Shown here: positions 7,510-64,000 of the stretch, piece by piece | Position numbering within the stretch: the first letter of the stretch is position 1 | Layout: each line of letters starts with the position of its first letter | NCBI GenBank assembly: GCA_035530075.1 | Contig: DATKVM010000005.1 | Coordinates: 87,861-151,860 of the forward strand | DNA: 64,000 nucleotides | Origin: Patescibacteria group bacterium | GTDB lineage: Bacteria; Patescibacteriota; Microgenomatia; UM-FILTER-40-11 | Direction: 5' to 3' | Position numbers and translations under genes: made by a program | The notes under the pieces: model-generated | Database searches by the model: none | Seen by the model: the letters and a program-made list of their open reading frames with translations, nothing else | What the model was told of the DNA's origin: nothing

Positions 7510-10500
7510 TGGGCTTCCTCCTCACTTAATTTTTGAATTCCTTCCGTTGGTTGGCCTTTTTCAACCTCCGCTTCCATTGTTGCCCCGGCTATTTCCGCCA
7601 GCTCTTCCGCCGCTTTGCCCATTTTGGCTTCCTCTGCCGTGATCGCTTCATCAACTGGCTTTTCGATTACTCCCTGCGGAATAACATTTAAACCTAAAGC
7701 TTTCAATTCGTTGACCAAAACATTAAACGATTCGGGAACCGAAGCTTCAGGAATATCCACTCCTTTAACTATCGCCTCAAATGCTTTGGCCCGGCCAACC
7801 ACATCATCGGATTTAATCGTCAACATTTCTTGTAAAACATGGGCTGCCTGATGAGCCTCCATCGCCCAAACTTCCATCTCTCCCAAGCGCTGGCCACCCA
7901 TTTGCGCCTTACCGCCAAGCGGCTGTTGAGTGACTAAAGAGTAAGGTCCGGTGGAACGGGCATGGGTTTTGTCTTCCACCATGTGGATTAACTTCATAAT
8001 GTAAGCCACGCCAACCGTTACCTCTTGGTTCATCGCTTCGCCAGTTCTCCCGTCATAAAGCTTGACTTTACCGTTAGCGGGAATATTGGCTTTCTTCATT
8101 TCCTCTTCCATCCGCTCTTCGGCAAACTCTTCGAAAACCGGGATGGCCACTCGATAACCTAACTTCTTGGCTGCCCAGCCTAGATGAGCCTCCAACAATT
8201 GACCCAAGTTCATTCTCGCCAGCACCGAAAGGGGAGAAATAACAATGTCGACTGGTGTTCCATCGGCCAAATAAGGCATATCTTCCACCGACACGACTTT
8301 GGAAATCACTCCCTTGTTGCCGTGTCGACCGGCTAATTTGTCTCCTTCGGTGATTTTTCTGATTTGGGCAACTTTCACTTTGACGACCACATTGACCCCC
8401 GGCTCTAGTTCATCGCCTTTTTCCCGATCTAAAACCTGCACTCCGACGACAATTCCCCGCTCGCCGTGAGGCATTCTTAAGGAAGTATCCCTCACTTCCC
8501 GAGCCTTCTCACCGAAAATCGCCCGGAGGAGCCTTTCTTCCGCTGAAAGCTCAGTTTCTCCCTTGGGAGCAATTTTCCCAACCAAGATATCATTCGGTTC
8601 GACTTCGGCCCCAACGACCACAATTCCATCTTCGGCTAAGTTAGCCAAGTCATGCTCACTAACATTCGGAATGTCACGAGTGAGTTCTTCTGGCCCCAAC
8701 TTTGTATCTACTACTTGCGCTTCGTATTCTTCAATTGAAATCGAGGTGAAAAGGTCTTCCTTGACCAAACGATCAGAAACCACAATCGCATCCTCAAAAC
8801 CCAAACCCTCATATTGAGCATAAGCGATAAGCAAATTTCGACCCAAAGCCAGTTCACCTTCTTCGCATGAAGGGCCATCGATAATCAGCTGACCTTCTTT
8901 TACTGTCTCACCAATCTTAACTAAAGGCTTTTGGGAATAGCAGGTACCAACCGGATTGGTTCGGCGAAATTTAACTACCCGATAAGTTTCCAAATCTCCT
9001 TCTTTGCGATAGAAATCCTCGATAATCTTTTCCTTAACCTTTTTATCGCTTTTAATGACCACTTTCTCGCTATCAACATAAACAACTTTCCCTTTGCCTC
9101 TAGCCTTGATAACCATTCCCATCGCTTCCGCAATTTTATTTTCCATTCCCGTTCCGATAATGGGGGCTTCCGGCGACAATAACGGCACCGCCTGAGTCTG
9201 CATATGAGTTCCCATCAGGGCTCGGTTTGGCTCATCGTTAGCAATAAAAGGAATTAAAGAAGCAGAAGTCCCGACAACCTGTTGCGGAGAAACATCGATT
9301 AAATCCACTCGGTCGCGGGTTACTTCCAAAAAGTCCCCCTTATAACGGACCGGCACCAGCTCGTCTCCAATATAACCATGGCGGTCAATCTTAATCCCCG
9401 CGTGAGTAATGCAAAAATCCTTTTCGTCATCGGCTTGCAGGTAGACAATTTTGTCCGTCACTTTCATTTTCGCCTTGCCATCCACTTTGACTTTTTCTAC
9501 CCGACGATAAGGCGCTTCCAAAAAACCAAATTCATTCACTCGGGCATAAAGGGAAAGATAAGTGACCAAACCGATATTTGGGCCCTCAGGAGAACGCACT
9601 GGGCAAATCCGACTGTACTGCGAAGCATTAATATCTCTAATGGAGAAGGAGGCGCGCTCACGAGTGATTCCTCCTTGACCCATAACCGAAAGCCGGCGCA
9701 AATTATCCAGTTCGGAAAGAGGATTGGTCTGGTCAAGAATTTGCGACAATTGCCCTTGGCGGTAAAATTCATTAATCGCTGAAATAAGCGGTCGAGCATT
9801 AATTAAGGCGCTGGGCTGGACTTTTTCCTCCGTGCTCATCAGAGCCATTCTTTCCTTAATCATTCTCTCCAAACGCAATAGTCCCACTTTAACCGCCGTT
9901 TGAAGAACTAACTCGCCGACTCGCCGAACCCGGCGGTTGGCTAGATGGTCAATATCATCCACTTCGCCTCGGCCAGTCTGCAGATTAACCAGATAAGTGA
10001 TAATTGCGTTCAAATCGGTCCGATTCAAAGTCCAGTTCTCTGGGGCATTGGGAAAATTGAGGCCTAAGCGCTTATTGATTTTGTAGCGGCCAACTTTACT
10101 TAAATCATACCGTCGATTGCTTAAAAACAAATTACGGAAAAATTCTTGAGCATTTTCTAAAATCGCTGGCTCACCCGGACGCAACTTCTTATAAATTTCA
10201 ATTAGGGCTTCTTCGCGAGTCTTAGTCGGATCATATTTGAGAGTCTTTTCAATGAAGGAGCGACCTTTTTCGCCCAAAGTGTCAAAGGCGGAAAGAATTT
10301 CTTCGTCCGTAGAAAAACCAAATGCTCGCAAAAGAACGGTGATGGGAAATTTCCGGCGTCGGTCAATCCGAACGGAAACAACATCATTCCGACCAACAAA
10401 GAATTCTAGCCAAGAACCCTTGACGGGCCTGACTTCAGCCATAAAAAGAGTCCGGCCAGTATTAGGATCAACTTCGCCGGAAAAATAAACACCGGGGGCT

Positions 10501-12371: not shown

Positions 12372-12755
12372 TTAATGAAGGCGGTCTAAATAAAATTCTA
12401 ACATAATTGCTGCCGCAAAAGCATCCTCTTTTTCGTGCCTAAATTTCCTTTTTCTCTTCAGCTTAAGGAGGAGTTTCTGAGCCTCCTGGCTCGTGAGCGT
12501 TTCATCGAAAAATTCCACTGCCAATCCCGTCTGCTTTCGCAACCGTTCACCAAACCGCCTAATTTCTTCTTCCATCTTCCCTCCCGGCACCCCGACAACA
12601 ATCTTCTCCACTCCTAATTCTTTGGCTAACTTTGCACTTTGCACTTTGAACTTTGAACTTGGCCAGACGGCCAACGGTTCCACCAACCGCGTTTGGGTCT
12701 CCCCCACGGCCAGCCCAATTTTCGCTCTCCCATAATCTATTCCTAATATTTTCAT
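12372..12755 (-). CDS. ruvX: Holliday-junction resolvase-like / pre-16S rRNA nuclease YqgF (RuvX)
   Basis: MKILGIDYGRAKIGLAVGE... canonical RuvX N-terminus, 127 aa. Confidence 0.85.
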   Translation of the reverse strand: MKILGIDYGRAKIGLAVGETQTRLVEPLAVWPSSKFKVQSAKLAKELGVEKIVVGVPGGKMEEEIRRFGERLRKQTGLAVEFFDETLTSQEAQKLLLKLKRKRKFRHEKEDAFAAAIMLEFYLDRLH

Positions 12756-12764
12756 ATGCTTGCT

Positions 12765-12803
12765 ACTAACTACTGGCTACTGGCTACTGGCTACTGGCTA
12801 CTA
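12765..12803. repeat. Tandem heptanucleotide repeat (ctactgg/ctggcta), about 5.5 copies
   Basis: ctactaa ctactgg ctactgg ctactgg ctactgg ctactat read directly; lies between the sortase stop and the ruvX start, and the last unit supplies the sortase stop codon. Confidence 0.9.
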
Positions 12804-17751: not shown

Positions 17752-17878
17752 AATTTTCTTATTTCTTATCTCCTATTTCTTATTTCTTAAATAGAAGTAT
17801 ATCCCAAATCAGCCTCATGGGCAAACGGGAAAAAGCAGATGACGACAAAAAGAGTTCCTGGAAAAAAATTTAAAATAA

Positions 17879-33723: not shown

Positions 33724-33784
33724 ATTTGAAAACTTAAAACTTAAAACTACAATTTAAAAAAATAACTCCAACTAGTATTCTATC

Positions 33785-47217: not shown

Positions 47218-47329
47218 TCTAGTTTAAAATTCAAAGTTAAAAATTAAAAGTTACAATTTAAAGTTAAAAGCTTGAAGACTTTGAACTTTACTCGCCTCGC
47301 TTTGTGGTCGAAGCGGGCACTTTGCACTT

Positions 47330-55518: not shown

Positions 55519-56805
55519 ATGAAAATCGCCATTATTGGCGGAGGGTTCACCGGATTAACGGCTGCCCTCCGTTTAGCTAAAGAAGGTCATCTGGTGACTC
55601 TCTTTGAGAAAGAGGATCAGCTGGGAGGATTGGCCTCCTCGTTCAAAAAAAACGGCTGGGATTGGCCCTTGGAACATTATTTCCACCATTATTTTAGTTC
55701 CGATCAAGCAGTAAAAAGGTTAGTCCAAGAGCTGCATCTGGAAAAAAAATTATCTTACTTTAAACCGAAAACCTCGGTTTATCTTGAAGGAAAGGTCTCT
55801 CGTTTTGATAGTTTCTCAAGCCTCCTTTTTTTTCCCAAACTAAAATTGACCGACAAATTAAGAACCGGACTGACTATTCTTTTTTTGAAATTTAACCCTT
55901 TTTGGCAACCCTTAGAAAAGATTCCGGCAGCCACTTTTATCCAAAAAACCATGGGGAAAGAAACTTACCGTCTAATCTGGCAGCCACTTTTGCAAAGTAA
56001 GTTTGGAGCCTTGGCTAACCAAATTCCCGCTTCTTGGTTTTGGACAAGAATCAAAAAAAGAAGTTTTGCCTTAGGATATTTAAACGGGGGAACTGCCGCT
56101 CTCCTTAGCGCCTTAACAGAAGAAATCAAAAAGAAACAGGGGCAAATTCTTCTGGGCCAAGCAGTCAGCCAGATTAAAAAAGCTCCAGACGGATTTGTCC
56201 TTTATTTCCAAAGCCAGCCGTATCCGACCAAATTTGAAAAAGTAATGGCCACCGTTCCTCCAGCCACTTTGGCCAAAATCGCTAGCGAACTTCCATTGAC
56301 AGAGAAAGCCAGCCTCCAAGCCCTTAAAAGTTTGGGCAGTCTTTGCCTGATTCTGGCTCTCAAGAAAAGCCTGCTTACCGACGGGACTTATTGGCTTAAT
56401 GTTAACGAAAGCCATTTCCCCTTCGTCGCTGTCGTTGAACATACCAATTTAATAGACAAAAAACATTACGGTCAAAATGTTCTTTTATATATTGGCGGTT
56501 ATTACCCGGCCCAACATCCCTTTTTCCGCCAAAATAAAGCGGCTCTTTTCCGGAAATTTCTTCCTTATTTGCAAAAGATTAATCCTTCCTTCGACTTTAA
56601 TCAAAACCTGAACGAATACTGGCTTTTCAAGAATGAATACAGTCAGCCGATAGTTTCGGCTAACTATTCTCAGAATCGGCCATTGGTTAAAACTAGCCTT
56701 CCGGGTCTTTATTGGGCTAGCCTTCATCATATTTACCCGGAAGACCGTGGGGTTAACTCTGCTATTCTTTTAGGAGAAAAACTTGCCAATGAAATTGTTT
56801 CTTAA
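55519..56805 (+). CDS. FAD/NAD(P)-binding oxidoreductase (amine-oxidase/protoporphyrinogen-oxidase/UGM-like superfamily)
   Basis: MKIAIIGGGFTGLTAALRLAKEGHLVTLFEKEDQLGG Rossmann dinucleotide-binding motif. Confidence 0.7.
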   Translation: MKIAIIGGGFTGLTAALRLAKEGHLVTLFEKEDQLGGLASSFKKNGWDWPLEHYFHHYFSSDQAVKRLVQELHLEKKLSYFKPKTSVYLEGKVSRFDSFSSLLFFPKLKLTDKLRTGLTILFLKFNPFWQPLEKIPAATFIQKTMGKETYRLIWQPLLQSKFGALANQIPASWFWTRIKKRSFALGYLNGGTAALLSALTEEIKKKQGQILLGQAVSQIKKAPDGFVLYFQSQPYPTKFEKVMATVPPATLAKIASELPLTEKASLQALKSLGSLCLILALKKSLLTDGTYWLNVNESHFPFVAVVEHTNLIDKKHYGQNVLLYIGGYYPAQHPFFRQNKAALFRKFLPYLQKINPSFDFNQNLNEYWLFKNEYSQPIVSANYSQNRPLVKTSLPGLYWASLHHIYPEDRGVNSAILLGEKLANEIVS

Positions 56806-58471
56806 AAAGAATTTCAAGCTACTGGCAATTCTTTTGGTCGCTTTTTTTCTGCGTTTTGTGGGAATTTCCTGGGGACTTCCTTATCACTTCCACCCTGATG
56901 AGTGGAATATGGCCAATGCTGTTTCTCAACTTTCTTGGGCCGATAAACTGCAGCCTCACTTTTTTGCCTATGGCCAGCTACCTCTTTACCTAAGCTTTTT
57001 TTCTGGCCGACTTTATAACCTTATCCCCTGGATTAATCTTGACCAAGTAAGTCCAACTGAGGCAACCTTTTTTCTGCGTTTCTGGTCCGCCCTCGCTGGC
57101 GTCGGCACTGTCTCCCTCGTTTACCTAATTACAAAGCGTCTGCTGACTACTAACTACTGTCTACTGGCTACTCTGTTGGCCGCTTTCACTCCCGGCTTAA
57201 TTCAAATTGCCCATTTTGGCACTACCGAATCCTTGCTCTCCTTTTTCTTTCTGGCAACTGTCTATTTTTCAATAAAAATCGTTGAAGAAAATCGATCAAG
57301 AAACTATTTTTTTGCCGGATTGCTTTTAGGACTGGCCTTAGGAACTAAAATCAGCGCCCTGGTTTTTGCCTTTCCGATCATTTTTGCTCTTCTCTTAAAA
57401 CTTCGGCAAGCGATGATTAAGAAGTCTTCGTGGTGTAGAGGGGGTGGTCTCTTCTTCCTTTTTCTTTGCGCCACCGCCATCTTTTTCTTTGTCTCTTCCC
57501 CATATGTTATCCTCAATTTCTCGGAAACAAAAAGAATCCTTCTTTACGAGGCTCAAGTGGCCAGTGGCCAAATCCCTGTCTTTTACACCCGACAATTCTT
57601 GAAGACCACTCCTGTTTTGTTTCAACTGGAAAAAATTTTCCCTTATGCCCTCGGCTGGCCAATTTTTATCCTCGGAATGGCCGGATTTCTTTTAATATTA
57701 TTTTTAATAGCCAAAAAATTACTCAAAACAAAACATTTTTCTTTTACCCTTACTACTTACTACTTACTACTGACTACTTTTCTGGTTTACTTCTTTTCCC
57801 AGGCTTTTCTTTTTTGCAAATGGACGCGCTTTATGGCCCCCATTTTTGCCTTCTTCCCCATCTTCGCCACTTTCTTCCTAAGTTACCTAAGTAACTTAAG
57901 AATTAAGGCTTTTTTAGTCGGAATTGCTCTTCTTCCGGGAATAGTCTTTTCTTCAATCTATTTCCGGCCCGATATCCGCTTTCAGGCCTCGGACTGGATT
58001 TATAAAAACATTCCTGCCAGCTCGCGAATTTTATCGGAGACCGGTAATGTCATCGACATCCCTATTCTCCCGCTTTCTAATCCTGACCACTCCCTCTCTT
58101 CCGTATCCTTCGACTTTTATCGCCTCGATGAAAATCCCCGGCTTCTCTCCCAATTGCTAGATTCACTCAGCAACAGCGACTACGTCTTTGTTCCTAGTCG
58201 CCGGTTATTCGCCAACCACTTAAGACTACCCCAAGACTACCCACTCACCGCCAAATATTATAAGCTTTTGTTTTCGGGTCAATTAGGTTTCACCGAAATT
58301 AAAAAATTCCAACCCTTTCCCAACTTATCACTTATCACTTATCACTTATCACTTTCCGACGAATCTGCCGAAGAAACTTGGTCAGTCTTTGACCACCCGG
58401 TCGTTAGAGTTTTCCAAAAAAAGGTCAGTCTAACTCGCCAGCAATATGAAGAACTATTTAAAGAAGATTAA
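56789..58471 (+). CDS. GT-C type membrane glycosyltransferase (PMT/ArnT-like, HPDE loop) containing heptanucleotide repeats
   Basis: GLPYHFHPDEWN loop, at least 10 TM segments, C-terminal soluble domain; ATG 56789 preferred over TTG 56783. Confidence 0.6.
   Translation: MKLFLKKNFKLLAILLVAFFLRFVGISWGLPYHFHPDEWNMANAVSQLSWADKLQPHFFAYGQLPLYLSFFSGRLYNLIPWINLDQVSPTEATFFLRFWSALAGVGTVSLVYLITKRLLTTNYCLLATLLAAFTPGLIQIAHFGTTESLLSFFFLATVYFSIKIVEENRSRNYFFAGLLLGLALGTKISALVFAFPIIFALLLKLRQAMIKKSSWCRGGGLFFLFLCATAIFFFVSSPYVILNFSETKRILLYEAQVASGQIPVFYTRQFLKTTPVLFQLEKIFPYALGWPIFILGMAGFLLILFLIAKKLLKTKHFSFTLTTYYLLLTTFLVYFFSQAFLFCKWTRFMAPIFAFFPIFATFFLSYLSNLRIKAFLVGIALLPGIVFSSIYFRPDIRFQASDWIYKNIPASSRILSETGNVIDIPILPLSNPDHSLSSVSFDFYRLDENPRLLSQLLDSLSNSDYVFVPSRRLFANHLRLPQDYPLTAKYYKLLFSGQLGFTEIKKFQPFPNLSLITYHLSLSDESAEETWSVFDHPVVRVFQKKVSLTRQQYEELFKED
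57749..57776. repeat. Heptanucleotide tandem repeat (cttacta x3 + ctgacta) inside a GT-C CDS
   Basis: Read directly; encodes TLTTYYLLLTT. Confidence 0.8.
58324..58354. repeat. Perfect heptanucleotide tandem repeat (cttatca x4.4) inside a GT-C CDS
   Basis: cttatcacttatcacttatcacttatcactt read directly; encodes LSLITYHLSLS. Confidence 0.9.
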
Positions 58472-60200
58472 AGTTTTTTTCCCCAGATTAAGCCCAAAAC
58501 TAATTCTCGGGCTTATTCTTTTCTTGGCGGCTTTTCTGCGTCTATATGGTCTTAATTGGGACCAGGGCCAGCATCTCCATCCGGATGAGCGCTTTTTAAC
58601 GATGGTGGAAACTGCCCTCAGCCTTCCTCAAACTTTCAACGAATACCTTAACCCTCAAACTTCCCCGATGAATCCTCACAACCGAGGCTATCAATTTTTT
58701 GTTTATGGAACTTTTCCTCTTTTCCTAACGAAGCTGGCCGGGGAACTGACTAATTATTCCGACTACGATCAGATTCATTTTATCGGTCGATTCCTTTCCG
58801 CCCTGTTCGACTTAAGTACGATATTAATCATATTTAAAATCGGTCAAAGGGTTTTTAACACTAAGGCCGGCATCCTCGCTGCTTTCTTATACTCCTCCAT
58901 GGTCCTCCCACTTCAACTTTCTCACTTCTTTGCGGTGGACACTTTCCTAACTTTTTTCCTCGTACTTTCGTTTTACTTTCTTGTTTTGCTGACAACTGAC
59001 TTTCGATTGCTAACTACTGCCACTCTCGGCATTTCCTTCGGTTTCGCCCTCGCTTGCAAAATTTCGGCTTTGTTTTTTGGGCCAGTTATTGTCGGGGGGT
59101 TACTTTTTATCTTAATTAAGAAATCAAAACAGCCAATTAAAATCTGCCTTGGGTTAATTACCGTCTTGGCTTTTTCCGCCCTCGCTTTTAGGCTTAGTCA
59201 GCCTTCTGCTTTCGCGACCGCCTCATTTGGCCAATGGCGGATTAACCCTCAGTTCGTGGTTAACTTAAAAGAACTAAGACAATATGACAATCCGGAAACT
59301 CTTTTTCCACCCTCAATCCAATGGCTGGCCACTAAACCAATACTGTTTCCCTTGAAAAATTTAATTTTCTGGGGGGTAGGATTACCTTTAGGAATCACGG
59401 CTGTTTTTTCTCTTCTTTACGCCATCGCTCAACTACTTAACTTTTCGATTTCCGTCAGAGGGAGAACCTTCAAACTAGAGGCGAAAAAATTTTTATATTT
59501 TTTGGCTCTTTTCTGGATTCTTGGCATTTTTTTCTATCAAGGCAGTCAGTTTTCTAAAAATATGCGCTATTTTTTGCCAATTTATCCCTTTTTGGCCCTC
59601 TTGTCGGCCGATTTCTTGCTTAAAATTATCGATTTATTGAGAGGAAAACTGTCGAAAAGGGCTCTTTTTGTTTCCGTTAGCCTGTTTTTTTCTCTCTTCT
59701 TAATTTATCCTCTCTCTTTTATGTCAATTTACGCCCAGCCCAACACCCGCATGGCCGCCTCAAATTGGATTTATCAAAATATCCCGGCCGGAGCCACTCT
59801 TCTTAATGAAGAATGGGACGACCCGCTCCCCCTTAACTTACCTCAAGAAAATTCTTCAATTTACACTCAAGAATATGTTTTTATGTATGCCCCCGATACC
59901 CCCGAGAAGTGGAAAAAGATTAATTCCCAACTAGAGAAAGTTGACTATATTGTTCTTTCCTCCAATCGAGCTTACGGCTCCACTATGCGCCTCGCCGATA
60001 GGTACCCTCAAACCATCGCCTATTATCAATCGCTTTTTACGGGAAGTGGAAAGTTTCAAAAGGTAGCCGAGTTTTACTCCTATCCTTGTCTTCCCCACCT
60101 CGGAGCACTTTCAATTTGTTTTAATGACGACGACGCCGAAGAATCCTTTACCGTCTACGATCATCCCAAAGTTATCATTTTTAAGAAAGCTTCTCACTAA
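58446..60200 (+). CDS. GT-C type membrane glycosyltransferase (PMT/ArnT-like, HPDE loop), paralogue of 56789
   Basis: GLNWDQGQHLHPDERF loop; same architecture and C-terminal ...DDAEESFTVYDHPKVIIF ending as the upstream paralogue (…SAEETWSVFDHPVVRVF). Confidence 0.6.
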   Translation: MKNYLKKIKVFFPRLSPKLILGLILFLAAFLRLYGLNWDQGQHLHPDERFLTMVETALSLPQTFNEYLNPQTSPMNPHNRGYQFFVYGTFPLFLTKLAGELTNYSDYDQIHFIGRFLSALFDLSTILIIFKIGQRVFNTKAGILAAFLYSSMVLPLQLSHFFAVDTFLTFFLVLSFYFLVLLTTDFRLLTTATLGISFGFALACKISALFFGPVIVGGLLFILIKKSKQPIKICLGLITVLAFSALAFRLSQPSAFATASFGQWRINPQFVVNLKELRQYDNPETLFPPSIQWLATKPILFPLKNLIFWGVGLPLGITAVFSLLYAIAQLLNFSISVRGRTFKLEAKKFLYFLALFWILGIFFYQGSQFSKNMRYFLPIYPFLALLSADFLLKIIDLLRGKLSKRALFVSVSLFFSLFLIYPLSFMSIYAQPNTRMAASNWIYQNIPAGATLLNEEWDDPLPLNLPQENSSIYTQEYVFMYAPDTPEKWKKINSQLEKVDYIVLSSNRAYGSTMRLADRYPQTIAYYQSLFTGSGKFQKVAEFYSYPCLPHLGALSICFNDDDAEESFTVYDHPKVIIFKKASH

Positions 60201-60209
60201 CCCTTAAGA

Positions 60210-61745
60210 TTAAAATCCATTTTGGTATTCCCAGAAAATGACTTTTCCTTCTGGGCTTTTGACTTCCTTAAAAATCCCCCCTGGAAAGCACAATTCAAGC
60301 TGCGACAAGAAATCTTTTCCCCGGGGGTCAAGGGCAAAATAATAATTTCCCTTTCTCGAGCGGCAATAAAAACTGCCTTCCTTAAGGAAATTAATTTCTT
60401 TTGGGCTTCTAAGAGAAAACTTAATTGCCTCCGGCTCCGGTTGGCCCCATTCTCCCCAGCAACAAGAATAAACAAAAACTTCCGCGCTCTCAGGTAGTTG
60501 GTCTATTCTGGAAGCAATAATCTTCCCAAAAGGAACATTGCCGTTGGGCAGTCCCCGGGTATAGTCAAAAAAATAACTTTTGAAATTCAGAGCCAAAGCC
60601 ATCAAAAAAAGCCAGGCAAACATAAGTTTCGCCAATAAAGGCTTTCTTTCACTTATTTTCCGAAAAGACCAACTTGCCCCTAGAGCGACGATTAAACAAA
60701 CAAAGGGCAAAGCCCCAATTGAACGAGTCGCCGAAGGAATATCAATGGGAAAATTAAGCACCAAAACGGAAGGTAACTGAAGGACAATCAGGGGCAATAA
60801 AACAAACGGCCAAAGTTGGCGCTTACCGAATAAGTAAACGCCGCCGAGAAGGAAGAAAAGCCCGCTTAATAAATCCAGCTGAGGTGCTCGGGGAGGATTG
60901 ACTCTAAAGACAATATCTCCCCTTAAATGAAGCATTGCCGCCTGGTTAACTAAATTAGTCAGCAACACTTTTATTAAATCGGAAAGTGTCTTTCCCTGAG
61001 AATTAATCATTCTGGCGGGGTGATGCCAATAACTGAGGGGGGATTTCCAAGCATAAATTGCCAACGGAGCAAAAACTAGGGCAAAACTTAAAGAGACTAT
61101 CGCCATCCCTTTTAAGAGAAAAATCTTCTCTCGCCTTTGCTTTTGCCAAAAAGCCCAAAAATAACCAGTCAGAATCAAAATCGGCATCACCCTAAAAGCG
61201 GTGTAAGTATACATTCCTAGGCCTAAGAATAAACCCGTGACCAAAAAATCAACTAACTTTAATTTCCGAATCGATTTGAGGAAAAAAATAAAAACCAAGG
61301 AAACAAACAGGGGCATTAAAATCGCCCGCAACCCCAACCGGCTAAAGGTCAGGTGCCAACGGGAGATAGCTAGAAAGAAAGCGGCTAACAAGCCCACCTT
61401 TTTATCCACTAGTTCCTTCCCTAAAAAGTAAATCGCCAAAACCCCCGCTAAACCGATCAGCGCCGTAGTGATTTTTTGCGTTAAATAACTTAAGCCAAGA
61501 AACCGGGCAATAATCGCAGTTAAATAAAAAAGCATTCCTTCGCGTCCGGTATTTTTGGGGAAAAAAATGGCCAGTTTTCCCGACATAATCTCAGCGATGT
61601 CTTTAAAATTTTCGTTGACATCACCAAACATTTCTCCGGGTAACTCCTCCAAAAGATAAAATCTTAAAAAAACCGCTACCGAAAAAATCAGAAAAAAAGG
61701 TAAGATTTTCTTCAGAGTGGATAGAAGCAGTTTCTTGCTTATCAT
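60210..61745 (-). CDS. GT-C type membrane glycosyltransferase (ArnT-like)
   Basis: 511 aa, polytopic, N-terminal acidic loop ...EELPGEMFGDVNENF... Confidence 0.55.
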   Translation of the reverse strand: MISKKLLLSTLKKILPFFLIFSVAVFLRFYLLEELPGEMFGDVNENFKDIAEIMSGKLAIFFPKNTGREGMLFYLTAIIARFLGLSYLTQKITTALIGLAGVLAIYFLGKELVDKKVGLLAAFFLAISRWHLTFSRLGLRAILMPLFVSLVFIFFLKSIRKLKLVDFLVTGLFLGLGMYTYTAFRVMPILILTGYFWAFWQKQRREKIFLLKGMAIVSLSFALVFAPLAIYAWKSPLSYWHHPARMINSQGKTLSDLIKVLLTNLVNQAAMLHLRGDIVFRVNPPRAPQLDLLSGLFFLLGGVYLFGKRQLWPFVLLPLIVLQLPSVLVLNFPIDIPSATRSIGALPFVCLIVALGASWSFRKISERKPLLAKLMFAWLFLMALALNFKSYFFDYTRGLPNGNVPFGKIIASRIDQLPESAEVFVYSCCWGEWGQPEPEAIKFSLRSPKEINFLKEGSFYCRSRKGNYYFALDPRGKDFLSQLELCFPGGIFKEVKSPEGKVIFWEYQNGF

Positions 61746-61760
61746 TAAATTTCCTTCCGA

Positions 61761-62927
61761 CTAATAATCAAATTTATTTCCCGAGGGGAAAAGTAAGCTT
61801 TGAAATTGGTCAATGGCTTTCTCCAGGGAAAAAATTTCTTTTGCCCGCCGCCCATTTTTAACATAACGGTTTTTATTCTTAATCACTTTAATAATGGCCC
61901 GGCTGATTTCTTGAGGGTTTCGGGGAGAGACGACTTCCCCCATTTGAGTTAATTTCACCGGCACCCTTACCCCCGGTAAATTACTGGCCACTACCGGGCA
62001 ACCACTGACCATCGCTTCCATTTGAATCATACCAAAAGCTTCCGTAGAATTGACACTGGGTAGAACTAAAACATCCAGTTTTCGAAGAAAGGAAACCAAC
62101 TCTTCATCGGTCAGTTTGCCCAAGAAAACAGCTTTCCCTAAATATCTCTGGGACAAAGAATTAATCTCCCGCCAATATTTTTCTTCCCCGACCGTCTCCT
62201 TGGGCCCAACCAAAAAAAGCCCAAAATCTTTTAGTTCTTCTCCCAAGTAAGGTATAGCCTGAAGTAAATATTCAATTCCTTTGTCGGCGGCCACTCTTCC
62301 CACATAACCAATTTTGTCTTTCCTTCCCTTAAGTTTCTCAAGAACAATTTTATCCGCTTCCGTTTCACCTGAGTCTTTCCTCAAGAAAATTTTATCCAGT
62401 GGCGGATAAATAATAACCACTTTATTTAAAAAATGCCTCAGGACGGGAGAATGCTTGGCATAATCTTCACTAGAATTAATAACTTTTTGAGCCAGGGCGC
62501 AACAGAGAAAATTAATTGCCATTAGCGTTTTCCCAATAATCTTATTGACCAAACTCGAAGCGAAAACAACATCACAGTGGTAAACGACCAAAGCTTTTTT
62601 CTTAAAAAGCCTGGCCAGGAAAAGCAACCATAATGATTCCGGCTGAGGTAAATGACAAATAACGCTATCGGCCGCCCTTACTTTTTGGTAACCTTGCCAT
62701 AACCAGGCGGGCATAACCAGGCCCTTATTTACCCGCCAAAGAAAAGGCACCCGGGTAACCAAAACTTTCCCTATTTTCTCTTTTTTGGCCAATTTCTTGT
62801 CATACTGTGCCGTGAGAATCTCTACCGTCTCTCCTTTGTCACTCAACCCCTCGGCTAACCGTTTAGCATAAACGCTCACGCCAGAAAGATAGGGATCATA
62901 ATAGGAAAGTGAAAAAAGGACTTTCAT
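61761..62927 (-). CDS. GT-B glycosyltransferase, family 4-like
   Basis: ...EAFGMIQMEAMVSGCPVVAS... E-x7-E motif. Confidence 0.85.
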   Translation of the reverse strand: MKVLFSLSYYDPYLSGVSVYAKRLAEGLSDKGETVEILTAQYDKKLAKKEKIGKVLVTRVPFLWRVNKGLVMPAWLWQGYQKVRAADSVICHLPQPESLWLLFLARLFKKKALVVYHCDVVFASSLVNKIIGKTLMAINFLCCALAQKVINSSEDYAKHSPVLRHFLNKVVIIYPPLDKIFLRKDSGETEADKIVLEKLKGRKDKIGYVGRVAADKGIEYLLQAIPYLGEELKDFGLFLVGPKETVGEEKYWREINSLSQRYLGKAVFLGKLTDEELVSFLRKLDVLVLPSVNSTEAFGMIQMEAMVSGCPVVASNLPGVRVPVKLTQMGEVVSPRNPQEISRAIIKVIKNKNRYVKNGRRAKEIFSLEKAIDQFQSLLFPSGNKFDY

Positions 62928-62938
62928 TTTTCCTCAAG

Positions 62939-63460
62939 TTAATTACAAATTGAAGAAATTTCAATCTTTTTATTTGAAGGACAAACAACTTTTAGGGAAG
63001 AAAGTTTCTCTTTCAGAAAGGAAGCAATTTCTTCATCGTCTTCAACGAAAATATCTGCTTTTATCTTCCTCAGCATTCTTTCCTTAAATAAGTGCGGCTG
63101 CTCATCGCCAAGATTAACGAATACTTCGGCGAAAAGATCCTCTAGTTCTCTTTTTTTCAACCAGTTTTTGGTTTCGTCTTTCAAAAAAGAGTAACGCCCC
63201 GAGATAACAAAAAGCTCATACTCCTTTTCCCGGGCAAGCCGGCGAATAAGAGCAATATTATTGCCGATAGGCGGCCGGAATAAATAATAATGAGATATCT
63301 TTCTCAGATATTTTTCCAACTTAAATCTGGGAAAACGATACCGAAGCTCTCTCTGATTGCCACCTTTAAAAAGCCGGTCAATTAATCGCTGAGGAATTAA
63401 CGGTGGTTTATCGACAATGACGCCGTCCAGGTCAAAAGCAACCCTGATTTTCCTCGCCAT
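62939..63460 (-). CDS. HAD-superfamily hydrolase-like protein
   Basis: VAFDLDGVIVD motif I (DxDG). Confidence 0.55.
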   Translation of the reverse strand: MARKIRVAFDLDGVIVDKPPLIPQRLIDRLFKGGNQRELRYRFPRFKLEKYLRKISHYYLFRPPIGNNIALIRRLAREKEYELFVISGRYSFLKDETKNWLKKRELEDLFAEVFVNLGDEQPHLFKERMLRKIKADIFVEDDEEIASFLKEKLSSLKVVCPSNKKIEISSICN

Positions 63461-63553
63461 TTGGCTGATTATACCCCGAGATAGGCAACCAGCGCAAAAA
63501 AAGATAAAGTCCCGCCTGATTGCAATCCAGAGAGGGTAATTTTAAAATACGCT

Positions 63554-64000
63554 TATGCTCGCGGACCTAAAAATTATTTTTGTTTGGTGGGGTTATCTTT
63601 TTGCCATTGGTTTGATATTTCTACCGCTTAGCCGACGCCTCTTTTCCTCCTTCTTCGATCAAGGTTATCTCTTCGCCAAAGTTTTAGGAATTTTGTTTTC
63701 TTCTTACTTGGTCTGGCTTCTGGCTTCTTTAAAAATCTTACCTTTTACCCTTATGTCGATTTGGGGGGCTTTCCTTTTGGGTTTATTTTGCAACCTTTTT
63801 CTTCTCAAACAAGATACCACCCTAAGGAAAGCAACCCGCCCGCTGGCGCTTACCTGGATGGGAGAGGAGCTCTTATTCCTTCTAGCTTTGGCGACTTGGT
63901 CTTTTGTCCGTGGTTTTCAGCCAGATATTCAAGGCCTAGAAAAATTTATGGATTTTGGCTTTGTTAACTCGATTCTGCGCAGCCGTTTTTTTCCGCCAGC
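63554..64000 (+). CDS. Polytopic membrane protein, DUF2298-like (N-terminal part; continues beyond the window end)
   Basis: ...EKFMDFGFVNSILRSRFFPP... resembles the MDFAFLNSILRS..FPP signature I recall for DUF2298 / chlor_Arch_YYY proteins. Confidence 0.4.

What the first reader, a model, noticed from the sequence alone, without database searches (positions are those of the whole stretch)
58324..58354. Perfect heptanucleotide tandem repeats inside a GT-C glycosyltransferase gene: candidate phase-variation switch
(cttatca)x4.4 is perfect at 58324-58354. Related 7-mer arrays occur at 57749-57776 (cttacta x3 + 1) and 57152-57179 (ctgacta/ctaacta/ctgtcta/ctggcta) in the same gene. Because the unit is 7 bp, any slipped-strand gain or loss of a unit shifts the frame of this membrane glycosyltransferase, which is the classic architecture of phase-variable surface-glycosylation genes. 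The same 7-mer family (ctggcta) forms a 5.5-copy array in the ruvX-sortase intergenic region (12765-12803), and a ctttgca/ctttgaa array lies inside ruvX (12636-12665). This suggests a genome-wide heptamer-slippage tendency.
Basis: partly seen in the sequence, partly recalled or inferred. Interest (0 to 1): 0.6.

Follow-up and report, generated by a model that had tools for sequence, protein, structure and literature searches.

The report
In-frame 7-bp microsatellite in glycosyltransferase gene
The perfect 7-base repeat is real and was made by DNA slippage, and similar arrays recur at the same loop positions of membrane glycosyltransferase genes across Microgenomates bacteria, but every copy seen keeps the reading frame, so an on/off switch is possible but not shown.

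Summary
Observation confirmed. The run 58323-58354 is a perfect 32-bp, 4.57-copy heptamer array (ACTTATC) inside a GT-C/GT39 glycosyltransferase gene (56783-58471, + strand).

Coding bias does not explain it: no codon shuffle or synonymous resampling (20,000 each) reproduced it.

In 1.3 Mb from 80 related Microgenomates genomes, strong tandem arrays are almost all period 7 (103, against 0-11 for any other period). They are about 15 times denser in GT-C genes than in other ORFs. They sit at about 10 recurrent loop positions and are about 4.5 copies long.

Orthologs at this site carry one of three states:
- a same-length array with a different homogeneous unit (ACTTCTC, TTTCAAA);
- a decayed array;
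- exactly 7 fewer codons, which equals 3 units.

Phase variation is not supported by the available data:
- 0 of 69 arrays in GT-C genes is out of frame.
- All 7 contigs of this strain, and all 5 contigs of a related population, have one length.
- Arrays also occur in LepA, RNase J and RuvX.

A gain or loss of one unit would replace the conserved C-terminal motif, so rare OFF mutants must arise. Read-level data are needed to measure them.

The parts
58323..58354 (+). Perfect heptanucleotide array (ACTTATC)x4.57, 32 bp. It encodes N-LSLITYH-LSL, residues 514-524 of the 562-aa ORF.
   Evidence: Searches confirm the array; no codon shuffle or synonymous resampling reached 32 bp; the segment is modelled as a low-confidence beta-hairpin (strands at 513-515 and 518-520 in P0001 numbering, pLDDT below 50).
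56783..58471 (+). GT-C fold glycosyltransferase gene (GT39/PMT_2 type). The ORF is 562 aa from the TTG at 56783, or 560 aa from the ATG at 56789 as annotated publicly (P0001).
   Evidence: PMT_2 at 1e-17; 100% match to P0001, named 'glycosyltransferase family 39 protein [Patescibacteria group bacterium]'. AlphaFold2 pTM 0.85; best Foldseek matches are STT3, AglB, PglB, ALG9/12, ArnT and Pmt4.
58358..58399 (+). Conserved C-terminal motif D-E-S-A-E-E-T-W-S-V-F-D-H-P. Any array change that is not a multiple of 3 units puts it out of frame.
   Evidence: D524, E528, E529, V533, D535, H536 and P537 are invariant in 21 homologs, including the 29%-identical paralog; frameshift products lack the motif.
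57749..57779 (+). Second heptamer array, CTTACTA x4.4 with one mismatch. It encodes LTTYYLLLTT at the start of a predicted membrane helix.
   Evidence: helix 319-341; family alignment columns 321-329.
57143..57172 (+). Degenerate heptamer array (CTGACTA / CTAACTA / CTGTCTA / CTGGCTA). It encodes LTTNYCLLAT and lies in the hot-spot at alignment columns 112-132.
   Evidence: 82% matches..
12762..12802 (.). Intergenic heptamer array, 5.9 copies. On the minus strand it reads (TAGCCAG)n. It starts at the sortase TAG stop codon and ends 6 nt before the ruvX ATG.
12628..12660 (-). In-frame heptamer array inside ruvX: AAGTTCA x2, AAGTGCA x2, then a partial unit. It encodes SSKFKVQSAKL.
58446..60200 (+). 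Downstream paralogous GT-C gene (584 aa). It overlaps the 3' end of the first gene by 26 nt. A frameshift at the array does not fuse the two genes.
   Evidence: all shifted frames stop before the downstream reading frame could be joined.

Best explanation
The array is an in-frame heptanucleotide microsatellite. It was produced by replication slippage in a lineage (Microgenomates, a group within the Candidate Phyla Radiation, CPR) whose genomes build tandem repeats almost only with 7-bp units.

It occupies a dispensable, probably extracytoplasmic, beta-hairpin loop just before the conserved C-terminal motif of a GT-C glycosyltransferase. A 7-bp array is read in all three frames, so three units encode one 7-aa peptide (LSLITYH).

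Slippage keeps generating unit gains and losses. Selection removes every change that breaks the frame. What survives is either about 1.5 copies (no visible array, 7 aa shorter) or about 4.5 copies. Repeated turnover keeps each array internally identical while its unit drifts between species.

Gains or losses of one or two units must arise in every population. They would give a truncated, probably inactive enzyme. They therefore form an unavoidable low-frequency OFF class, but nothing here shows that this is frequent or used adaptively.

What is shown and what is inferred:
- Shown: the anatomy, the period-7 specificity, the enrichment, the hot-spots, the concerted unit changes, the 7-codon length steps, and the absence of out-of-frame alleles.
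- Inferred: slippage as the mechanism, loss of function on frameshift, and the extracytoplasmic location.
For: (1) Period-7 specificity.
- In the window there are 4 strong period-7 arrays, 0 for periods 4-6 and 8-15, and 0 in shuffles.
- In 1.30 Mb from 80 related genomes there are 103 arrays of period 7. The other periods gave 1, 1, 6, 11 and 3 (periods 4, 5, 6, 8 and 14) and 0 for periods 9-13 and 15.

(2) The array is not coding bias.

(3) Comparison at the same site.
- L085 (62% aa identity) has a perfect (ACTTCTC)x5 array with the same codon count.
- L087 has a decayed version.
- L088 lacks exactly 7 codons. L006 and L007 also differ by 7 aa.
- L007, L032 and L049 use TTTCAAA.

(4) Between species, array mismatches come in whole-unit quanta (0, 4, 8 of about 31) while the flanks differ by about 21%. 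That is concerted evolution.

(5) Within one Shapirobacteria population the array has 0, 1 or 2 G-bearing units at constant length.

(6) Arrays are in frame everywhere: 0 of 69 in GT-C genes is out of frame.

(7) Arrays also occur in LepA (3 loci), RNase J, GT4, an amine oxidase (4 loci, same position) and RuvX. This points to a genome-wide mutational process filtered by tolerance.

(8) Perfect-run lengths in ORFs are bimodal, with a second mode at 31-33 bp, which equals an 11-bp seed plus 21 bp.

(9) Literature: heptameric simple sequence repeats (SSRs) are over-represented in many bacteria, and the size of the polymerase active site has been proposed as the cause (PMC4692102, citing Mrazek 2007).
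Against: - Array density in GT-C ORFs (35.5 per 100 kb) exceeds that of non-ORF DNA (10.8 per 100 kb). My binomial estimate from those counts is about 1e-5. A purely neutral by-product would not be expected to be commonest in coding DNA. Frame-locking of array length by selection could lengthen residence time, but that is a conjecture.
- Intergenic arrays are also about 31-36 bp and appear or disappear as whole arrays, so the reading-frame argument does not fully explain the preferred length.
- Going from 1.5 to 4.5 copies needs either out-of-frame intermediates or a multi-unit slip.
- No read-level data were available, so the actual slippage rate is unknown.
Confidence: 0.58

Rival explanations
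1. True contingency locus. The array is kept by second-order selection as a stochastic ON/OFF switch of a surface-glycosylating enzyme. Gain or loss of one unit truncates the enzyme, and reversion restores it.
For: - The unit length is not a multiple of 3, the array is perfect, and the gene acts on the cell surface.
- Arrays are 15-fold enriched in GT-C genes and 3-fold over non-ORF DNA.
- Arrays persist at the same sites and stay homogeneous across deep divergence.
- Constant length with unit replacement (GGAA, GAAA and AAAA alleles) is what cycles of losing then regaining one unit would produce.
- The frameshift removes invariant residues.
Against: - 0 of 69 arrays in GT-C genes is OFF, which puts the 95% upper bound at about 4% per array. 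Classical contingency loci are commonly found OFF in genome sequences (my knowledge).
- No length variant was found among the 7 contigs of this strain or in the related population, i.e. the reference locus plus 4 metagenome contigs.
- The tract has only 4.6 units.
- Arrays are spread along the whole gene and sit near the 3' end here, rather than being concentrated at the 5' end.
- The same arrays occur in LepA, RNase J and RuvX.
- The only truncated alleles found are due to homopolymers or other deletions.
Confidence: 0.2
2. Selected loop diversification. The arrays are maintained to vary the length and sequence of exposed hairpin loops of GT-C and DUF2298 (an uncharacterized polytopic membrane-protein family) enzymes in frame, through 3-unit steps and unit replacement. 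One possible benefit is escape from phage or host recognition.
For: - Arrays sit at about 10 discrete variable-loop positions.
- The loop at alignment column 50 is bracketed by two Cys residues in Roizmanbacteria-type proteins. Its length classes differ by 7 aa, for example CIISNFREC against CVISNFEFRISNFREC.
- Among the non-GT-C ORFs with arrays that were checked, DUF2298 proteins carry the most: 8 arrays in 5 loci.
- In L049 and L032 the array replaced the ancestral hairpin that L047 retains, at only about 15-19% DNA divergence.
- By analogy with solved GT-C structures, the C-terminal domain is on the extracytoplasmic side.
Against: - No within-species length polymorphism was seen.
- Arrays also lie in cytoplasmic housekeeping proteins.
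- No evidence of positive selection was obtained.
- The topology is only inferred.
Confidence: 0.13
3. A functional DNA or RNA element, such as a protein-binding site or a structured RNA, that happens to lie in coding sequence.
For: - The preferred array length of about 31-33 bp is also seen in non-coding arrays.
- Some arrays are identical between species whose flanks differ by 14-28%.
Against: - Units differ completely between species at the same site, including at the non-coding site (AACTTTT against TTTAATA). No sequence-specific binder fits that.
- There is no predicted secondary structure: minimum free energy 0 kcal/mol, z-score 0.98.
- No Rfam family matches.
Confidence: 0.05
4. Chance, or Leu/Thr/Tyr-rich transmembrane coding bias.
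For: The encoded peptides are hydrophobic or low-complexity, and two of the three arrays in the gene are imperfect.
Against: - 0 of 20,000 codon shuffles exceeded 20 bp, and 0 of 20,000 synonymous resamplings of the same protein reached 32 bp.
- The excess is confined to period 7. Periods 6, 9 and 12, which protein repeats would favour, are not enriched.
Confidence: 0.01

Closest known systems
NeuO O-acetyltransferase heptanucleotide repeat tract (E. coli K1, phage CUS-3)
   Same: Both have a 7-bp unit inside a coding sequence of a surface-glycan-modifying enzyme. Only copy numbers that keep the frame (multiples of 3) give a full-length protein, and three units encode one 7-aa peptide. The paper listed (PMC13001214) describes NeuO as a phase-variable O-acetyltransferase. 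The details of its repeat tract come from my own knowledge.
   Different: From my knowledge, the NeuO tract is long (tens of copies), lies at the 5' end, and varies visibly among isolates with ON and OFF states. Here the tract has 4.6 copies, lies near the 3' end in a loop, is one of three arrays in the gene, and shows no length variants or OFF alleles.
Classical SSR contingency loci in glycosyltransferase genes (Haemophilus, Neisseria, Campylobacter, Pasteurella)
   Same: A non-triplet repeat in a surface-glycosylation gene, where changing the unit number shifts the frame.
   Different: Those use 1-5 nt units, usually long tracts near the 5' end. ON/OFF polymorphism is readily seen among genomes (abstracts of PMC9176279 and PMC6321876 for tract types and phase variation; tract position and the frequency of OFF alleles are my knowledge). 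None of these population signatures was found here.
Heptameric SSR over-representation in bacteria: Calothrix tandem heptanucleotides, the GGGGA(T/C)T repeats of Nostoc, and the Xanthomonas GGGAATC repeats
   Same: Genome-wide preference for 7-bp tandem units, with units and lengths differing between related species at the same site (PMC4692102).
   Different: Those are mostly intergenic and have one or a few G-rich consensus units per genome. Here the units are many and AT-rich or stop-free, most arrays are inside ORFs and in frame, and they are concentrated in GT-C and DUF2298 genes.
GT-C fold glycosyltransferases of the GT39/PMT_2 type (ArnT, Pmt, PglB/STT3 relatives)
   Same: Pfam PMT_2 and PMT matches, the GT-C fold, a conserved HPDE motif after the first membrane helix, and a C-terminal soluble domain.
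   Different: The substrate and acceptor are unknown. Sequence identity to solved structures is only 12-21%.

Membership tests
SSR-mediated phase-variable (contingency) locus | Tandem repeat with a unit that is not a multiple of 3, placed inside an ORF or promoter so that unit number sets expression | tested here: met
   The 7-bp unit is in-frame at 4.57 copies. Gain or loss of 1 or 2 units shifts the frame.
SSR-mediated phase-variable (contingency) locus | Repeat number varies among cells, strains or samples of one lineage | tested here: not met
   Seven contigs from at least 4 samples encode the identical protein, and 4 loci compared are 99.99-100% identical to the window, array included. 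The 90%-identity cluster of P0001 has a single member. The orthologous array has one length in the GTDB reference locus and 4 metagenome contigs, and in 17 protein variants. Caveat: these are assembly consensus sequences, not reads.
SSR-mediated phase-variable (contingency) locus | Both ON and OFF (out-of-frame) alleles are found in natural genomes | tested here: not met
   0 of 69 strong arrays in about 112 GT-C ORFs is out of frame. The one split GT-C gene (L069) is broken by a non-repeat deletion. Truncated cluster members trace to homopolymers.
SSR-mediated phase-variable (contingency) locus | Measured high, reversible switching rate | not testable with these tools
   This needs read pileups, amplicon sequencing or a reporter assay.
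NeuO-type in-frame heptanucleotide repeat tract | Heptanucleotide unit in coding sequence, with 3 units encoding a 7-aa repeat | tested here: met
   (ACTTATC)n encodes LSLITYH-LSL.
NeuO-type in-frame heptanucleotide repeat tract | Long, highly polymorphic tract at the 5' end of the gene | tested here: not met
   The tract has 4.57 copies, starts at codon 514 of 562, and shows no polymorphism.
GT-C fold glycosyltransferase (GT39 / PMT_2) | Pfam PMT_2 or PMT match above the gathering score | tested here: met
   PMT_2 scored 65.2 bits against a cut-off of 26.1. PMT scored 55.6 bits against 22.7.
GT-C fold glycosyltransferase (GT39 / PMT_2) | Polytopic membrane GT-C fold with an acidic motif in the first extracytoplasmic loop | tested here: met
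   AlphaFold2 pTM 0.85. Foldseek probability 1.00 to STT3, AglB, PglB, ArnT, ALG9/12 and Pmt4. H35, P36, D37 and E38 are invariant.
Cyanobacterial and Xanthomonas-type heptamer repeat families | Intergenic arrays sharing one or a few genome-specific, G-rich consensus units | tested here: not met
   Most arrays are inside ORFs. Many different AT-rich, stop-free units occur, even within one gene.

The most novel reading that the evidence does not exclude
Microgenomates maintain short heptanucleotide arrays at about 10 fixed loop positions of their GT-C and DUF2298 envelope glycosyltransferases as an evolved mutability system. Changes of one unit would give reversible ON/OFF switching, and changes of three units or unit replacement would give in-frame remodelling of exposed hairpins. 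This would be the first contingency-locus system described in CPR bacteria, and one built on 7-bp units with a fixed array length of about 4.5 copies.
Probability: 0.25. Interest if true: 0.75.

Novelty: new variant of a known kind. Interest (0 to 1): 0.5.

Why it matters
CPR (Candidate Phyla Radiation) bacteria are uncultured episymbionts, and how they vary their surfaces is largely unknown.

This analysis shows that one CPR lineage builds tandem repeats almost only from 7-bp units. These in-frame arrays are concentrated at recurrent loop positions of envelope glycosyltransferases and evolve in concert.

That gives two things:
- a concrete, testable candidate for surface variation in CPR, through read-level copy-number counts at defined coordinates;
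- a clean natural system for asking why bacterial polymerases favour heptamer slippage, an observation from 2007 that PMC4692102 described in 2015 as lacking any detailed follow-up.

If instead the arrays are neutral, they are still a useful warning. A perfect non-triplet repeat in a surface gene does not by itself make a phase-variation switch.

Tried and rejected
1. Copy-number variants of this exact array in JGI metagenome contigs. A flank-plus-variable-gap pattern found nothing, although the pattern works on the window. The collection evidently lacks this organism.
2. The same test on the orthologous array of a better-sampled Shapirobacteria population. It gave 4 contigs, all the same length.
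3. Length variation inside ten 90%-identity protein clusters. The length differences found were unrelated to heptamer arrays: other indels, C-terminal tails, homopolymer frameshifts and contig ends. The one promising truncated allele, P0144, is a C6 to C7 homopolymer change.
4. A search for GT-C genes split at arrays. The flags raised were artefacts of arrays lying at ORF edges. The one true split gene (L069) is broken elsewhere.
5. Fusion of the two adjacent GT-C genes by a frameshift. Rejected, because all shifted frames stop first.
6. RNA family or secondary structure at the array. None was found.
7. The idea that arrays are more conserved than their flanks. Rejected overall: 22% against 21% mismatches. 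The differences are quantised by unit instead.
8. One mobile "7-mer family". Sharing of units between sites is expected. I reasoned from the stop-codon rule, without a computation, that only a handful of AT-rich heptamers avoid stop codons in all three frames.
9. Literature searches for heptamer repeats or phase variation in CPR or Microgenomates found nothing relevant.
Full report
**Observation**

The sequence at 58323-58354 is a perfect 32-bp run with period 7: (ACTTATC)x4.57, with (CTTATCA)x4 at 58324-58351. It lies in ORF 56783-58471 (+). Pfam assigns the product to PMT_2/PMT. It is 100% identical to a public protein named [quoted passage not shown] (P0001). An AlphaFold2 model (pTM 0.85) matches STT3, AglB, PglB, ALG9/12, ArnT and Pmt4, so this is a GT-C fold enzyme.

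- 57749-57779, 4.4 copies.
- 57143-57172, a degenerate array.
- 12762-12802, intergenic. On the minus strand it reads (TAGCCAG)n, running from the sortase TAG stop codon to 6 nt before the ruvX ATG.
- 12628-12660, inside ruvX.

**Is it more than chance or coding bias?**

Yes.
- At a stringent threshold the window holds four period-7 arrays and none of any other period from 4 to 15. Thirty dinucleotide shuffles gave no period-7 array.
- Shuffling the gene's codons 20,000 times never gave a perfect period-7 run longer than 20 bp.
- Keeping the protein sequence and resampling synonymous codons 20,000 times never reached 32 bp, with a maximum of 27 bp in this segment.

The repeat is therefore a DNA-level feature, not a by-product of Leu/Thr/Tyr-rich coding.

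**Consequences of unit changes**

Changes of -2, -1, +1 and +2 units give products of 531, 547, 538 and 554 aa with unrelated tails. All of them lose the block D-E-S-A-E-E-T-W-S-V-F-D-H-P. In that block D524, E528, E529, V533, D535, H536 and P537 are invariant across 21 homologs, including a 29%-identical paralog. Changes of +3 or -3 units stay in frame and add or remove LSLITYH. No shifted frame runs into the downstream paralogous GT-C gene (58446-60200).

**The wider phenomenon**

I fetched 80 loci around orthologs from one-genome-per-species Microgenomates assemblies (1.30 Mb). These include Shapiro-, Roizman-, Gottesman-, Woese-, Davies- and Levybacteria.
- Strong tandem arrays are almost exclusively period 7: 103 arrays, against 1, 1, 6, 11 and 3 for periods 4, 5, 6, 8 and 14, and 0 for periods 9-13 and 15.
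- Their density is 35.5 per 100 kb in GT-C ORFs, 2.4 in other ORFs and 10.8 outside ORFs.
- Array length peaks sharply at 31-33 bp. The distribution of perfect-run lengths in ORFs is bimodal, with a gap at 21-26 bp.
- Mapped onto the family alignment, the arrays fall at about ten discrete positions: columns 0, 50, 112-132, 164-176, 213-222, 313-329, 371-385, 430-443, 484-486 and 518-528. Different units are used in different species, but the frame and length are the same.
- The window's three arrays sit in three of these hot-spots.

It is a lineage-wide trait. It fits the reported general over-representation of heptameric simple sequence repeats (SSRs) in bacteria, for which the size of the polymerase active site has been proposed as the cause (PMC4692102).

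**The site itself across orthologs**

At columns 518-528 most family members have a hairpin-like segment of about 12 residues before the DE.AEE motif. AlphaFold models the window's version as two short strands with pLDDT below 50. The states seen are:
- L085 (62% aa identity) carries a perfect (ACTTCTC)x5 array with exactly the same number of codons.
- L087 (57%) has a decayed copy of the window's array.
- L088 (75%) lacks exactly 7 codons, which equals 3 units.
- L006 and L007 differ by the same 7 aa.
- L007, L032 and L049 use TTTCAAA/G.
- L049 and L032 have the array where L047, only about 15-19% diverged in DNA from them, keeps the ancestral non-repeat hairpin.

Across 85 homologous array pairs, the overall mismatch rate equals that of the flanks (22% against 21%). 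However, it is quantised: 0, 4 or 8 of about 31 positions, meaning that whole units are replaced. This is concerted evolution. It shows that unit turnover is faster than speciation.

Within one Shapirobacteria population the array occurs with 0, 1 or 2 G-bearing units at constant length. This is most simply explained by loss of one unit and duplication of another.

**Is it a phase-variation switch?**

The anatomy permits it, but every population signature I could test is negative.
- The gene is found on 7 contigs from at least 4 samples (ENA, JGI and Logan assemblies). All encode the identical protein. The 4 loci compared are 99.99-100% identical to the window. Its 90% cluster has a single member.
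- Among 69 strong arrays in about 112 GT-C ORFs, none is out of frame.
- A search for split GT-C genes found only L069, which is broken by a non-repeat deletion.
- Truncated members of ten protein clusters trace to homopolymers or contig ends. One example, P0144, was confirmed at the DNA level as a C6 to C7 change.
- With 0 of 69, the OFF fraction per array is below about 4% at 95% confidence.
- Arrays of the same kind lie in frame in LepA (three loci, two at a homologous site), RNase J, a GT4 enzyme, the upstream amine-oxidase-like gene (four loci, same position) and RuvX. Switching makes little sense for these genes.
- DUF2298 proteins (an uncharacterized polytopic membrane-protein family) account for a further 8 arrays.

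**Best explanation**

A heptamer-biased slippage process seeds arrays throughout these genomes. Selection removes all changes that break a reading frame. In ORFs one therefore sees either the seed of about 1.5 copies or the state of about 4.5 copies (seed plus 21 bp), and only in loops that tolerate 7 extra residues. Large envelope glycosyltransferases have the most such loops.

Turnover keeps arrays perfect while units drift. A coding array is read in all three frames, so its unit must lack stop codons in every frame. In AT-rich genomes this leaves few options, such as AAATTTC, AATTTTC and AAAAATC. That explains the apparent "family" of units.

Mutants with one or two units more or fewer must arise continually and would be OFF. 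Whether they are frequent or useful is unknown.

**What this does not explain**

- Array density in GT-C ORFs is three-fold higher than in non-ORF DNA.
- Intergenic arrays have the same length of about 31-36 bp and are gained or lost whole. At one promoter-like site L025 lacks the array, L030 has AACTTTT x5, and L031 and L075 have TTTAATA x4.4.
- Expansion from 1.5 to 4.5 copies needs out-of-frame intermediates or multi-unit slips.

These points keep alive the readings that the arrays are selected, either as contingency switches or as a way to remodel exposed loops. In Roizmanbacteria-type proteins the loop at column 50 is bracketed by two Cys residues and comes in length classes 7 aa apart.

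**Rejected readings**

- A structured DNA or RNA element is unlikely. There is no predicted fold and no Rfam hit, and units are unrelated between species at the same site.
- Chance or coding bias is excluded.

**Comparison with known systems**

- It works most like the NeuO heptanucleotide repeat tract of E. coli K1: a 7-bp unit, only multiples of three are active, and 7-aa peptide repeats. It fails NeuO's defining long, polymorphic, 5'-located tract.
- It fails two of the three testable criteria of a contingency locus, namely length polymorphism and OFF alleles.
- It shares the heptamer preference of the cyanobacterial and Xanthomonas repeats, but not their intergenic location or consensus units.
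- I found no report of such arrays in CPR bacteria.

**Verdict**

I class this as a new variant of a known kind and score interest at 0.5. It is ordinary as a candidate switch. It is notable as a lineage-wide, gene-family-focused, position-recurrent coding microsatellite system that read-level data could quickly resolve.

Noticed in passing
window 55519-64000 (also L001, L085, L087): The array-bearing gene sits in a conserved envelope-glycosylation cluster: amine-oxidase-like gene, two tandem GT-C genes overlapping by 26 nt, a third GT-C gene on the opposite strand, GT4, a small ORF, DUF2298, LytR_cpsA_psr and UvrD. The order is syntenic in relatives that are 57-62% identical.
   Followed up: partly
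window 17755-17789, 33729-33759, 47226-47262: Further, weaker period-7 arrays (TTTCTTA x5, AAAACTT x4.6, AAAATTA x5.3) lie outside any ORF of 100 aa or more. Their relation to promoters or terminators was not examined.
   Followed up: no
L030 775-810; L031 3770-3800; L075 9145-9171; L025 about 9106-9265: One homologous promoter-like intergenic site lies between TTG[AG]CAAAAAAAACATTTCAT and TTTTAGAACGGTATATCATCCGG. It carries AACTTTT x5, TTTAATA x4.4, or no array at all in related species. Whole arrays of about 31 nt therefore come and go where no reading frame constrains them.
   Followed up: partly
L032 about 227-658 (array at alignment column 50), compared with L047 and L049: L032 has a 21-bp non-repeat insertion (CCCTACGTTCCTCAGGGTAAA, with CCCT...AGGG inverted ends) in the middle of the AAATTTC array.
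   Followed up: no
L037 13515-13538 and L083 1499-1530: The translation GTPase LepA carries an in-frame AAATCCG array (peptide KSEIRN) at the same position of its GTPase domain in two distant genomes, with 1 mismatch in 24 nt.
   Followed up: partly
P0002 / L088 compared with window 56789-58471: The closest homolog (75% identity) is nearly identical to the window protein over roughly its first 300 residues and much more diverged afterwards. DNA around the first array is identical for 48 nt. This looks like a recombination mosaic.
   Followed up: no
L089 about 4330 compared with L090: A truncated GT-C allele (P0144, 455 aa) differs from its full-length relative only by C7 against C6 in a poly-C tract, at the hot-spot at alignment columns 430-443. 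It could be a genuine homopolymer slip or an assembly error.
   Followed up: partly
all loci: A few period-8 perfect runs of 27-35 bp also exist in ORFs (11 strong period-8 arrays). They were not inspected.
   Followed up: no
window 12629-12660 (minus strand): The ruvX array consists of two AAGTTCA units followed by two AAGTGCA units and a partial unit. This suggests duplication in two-unit blocks.
   Followed up: no
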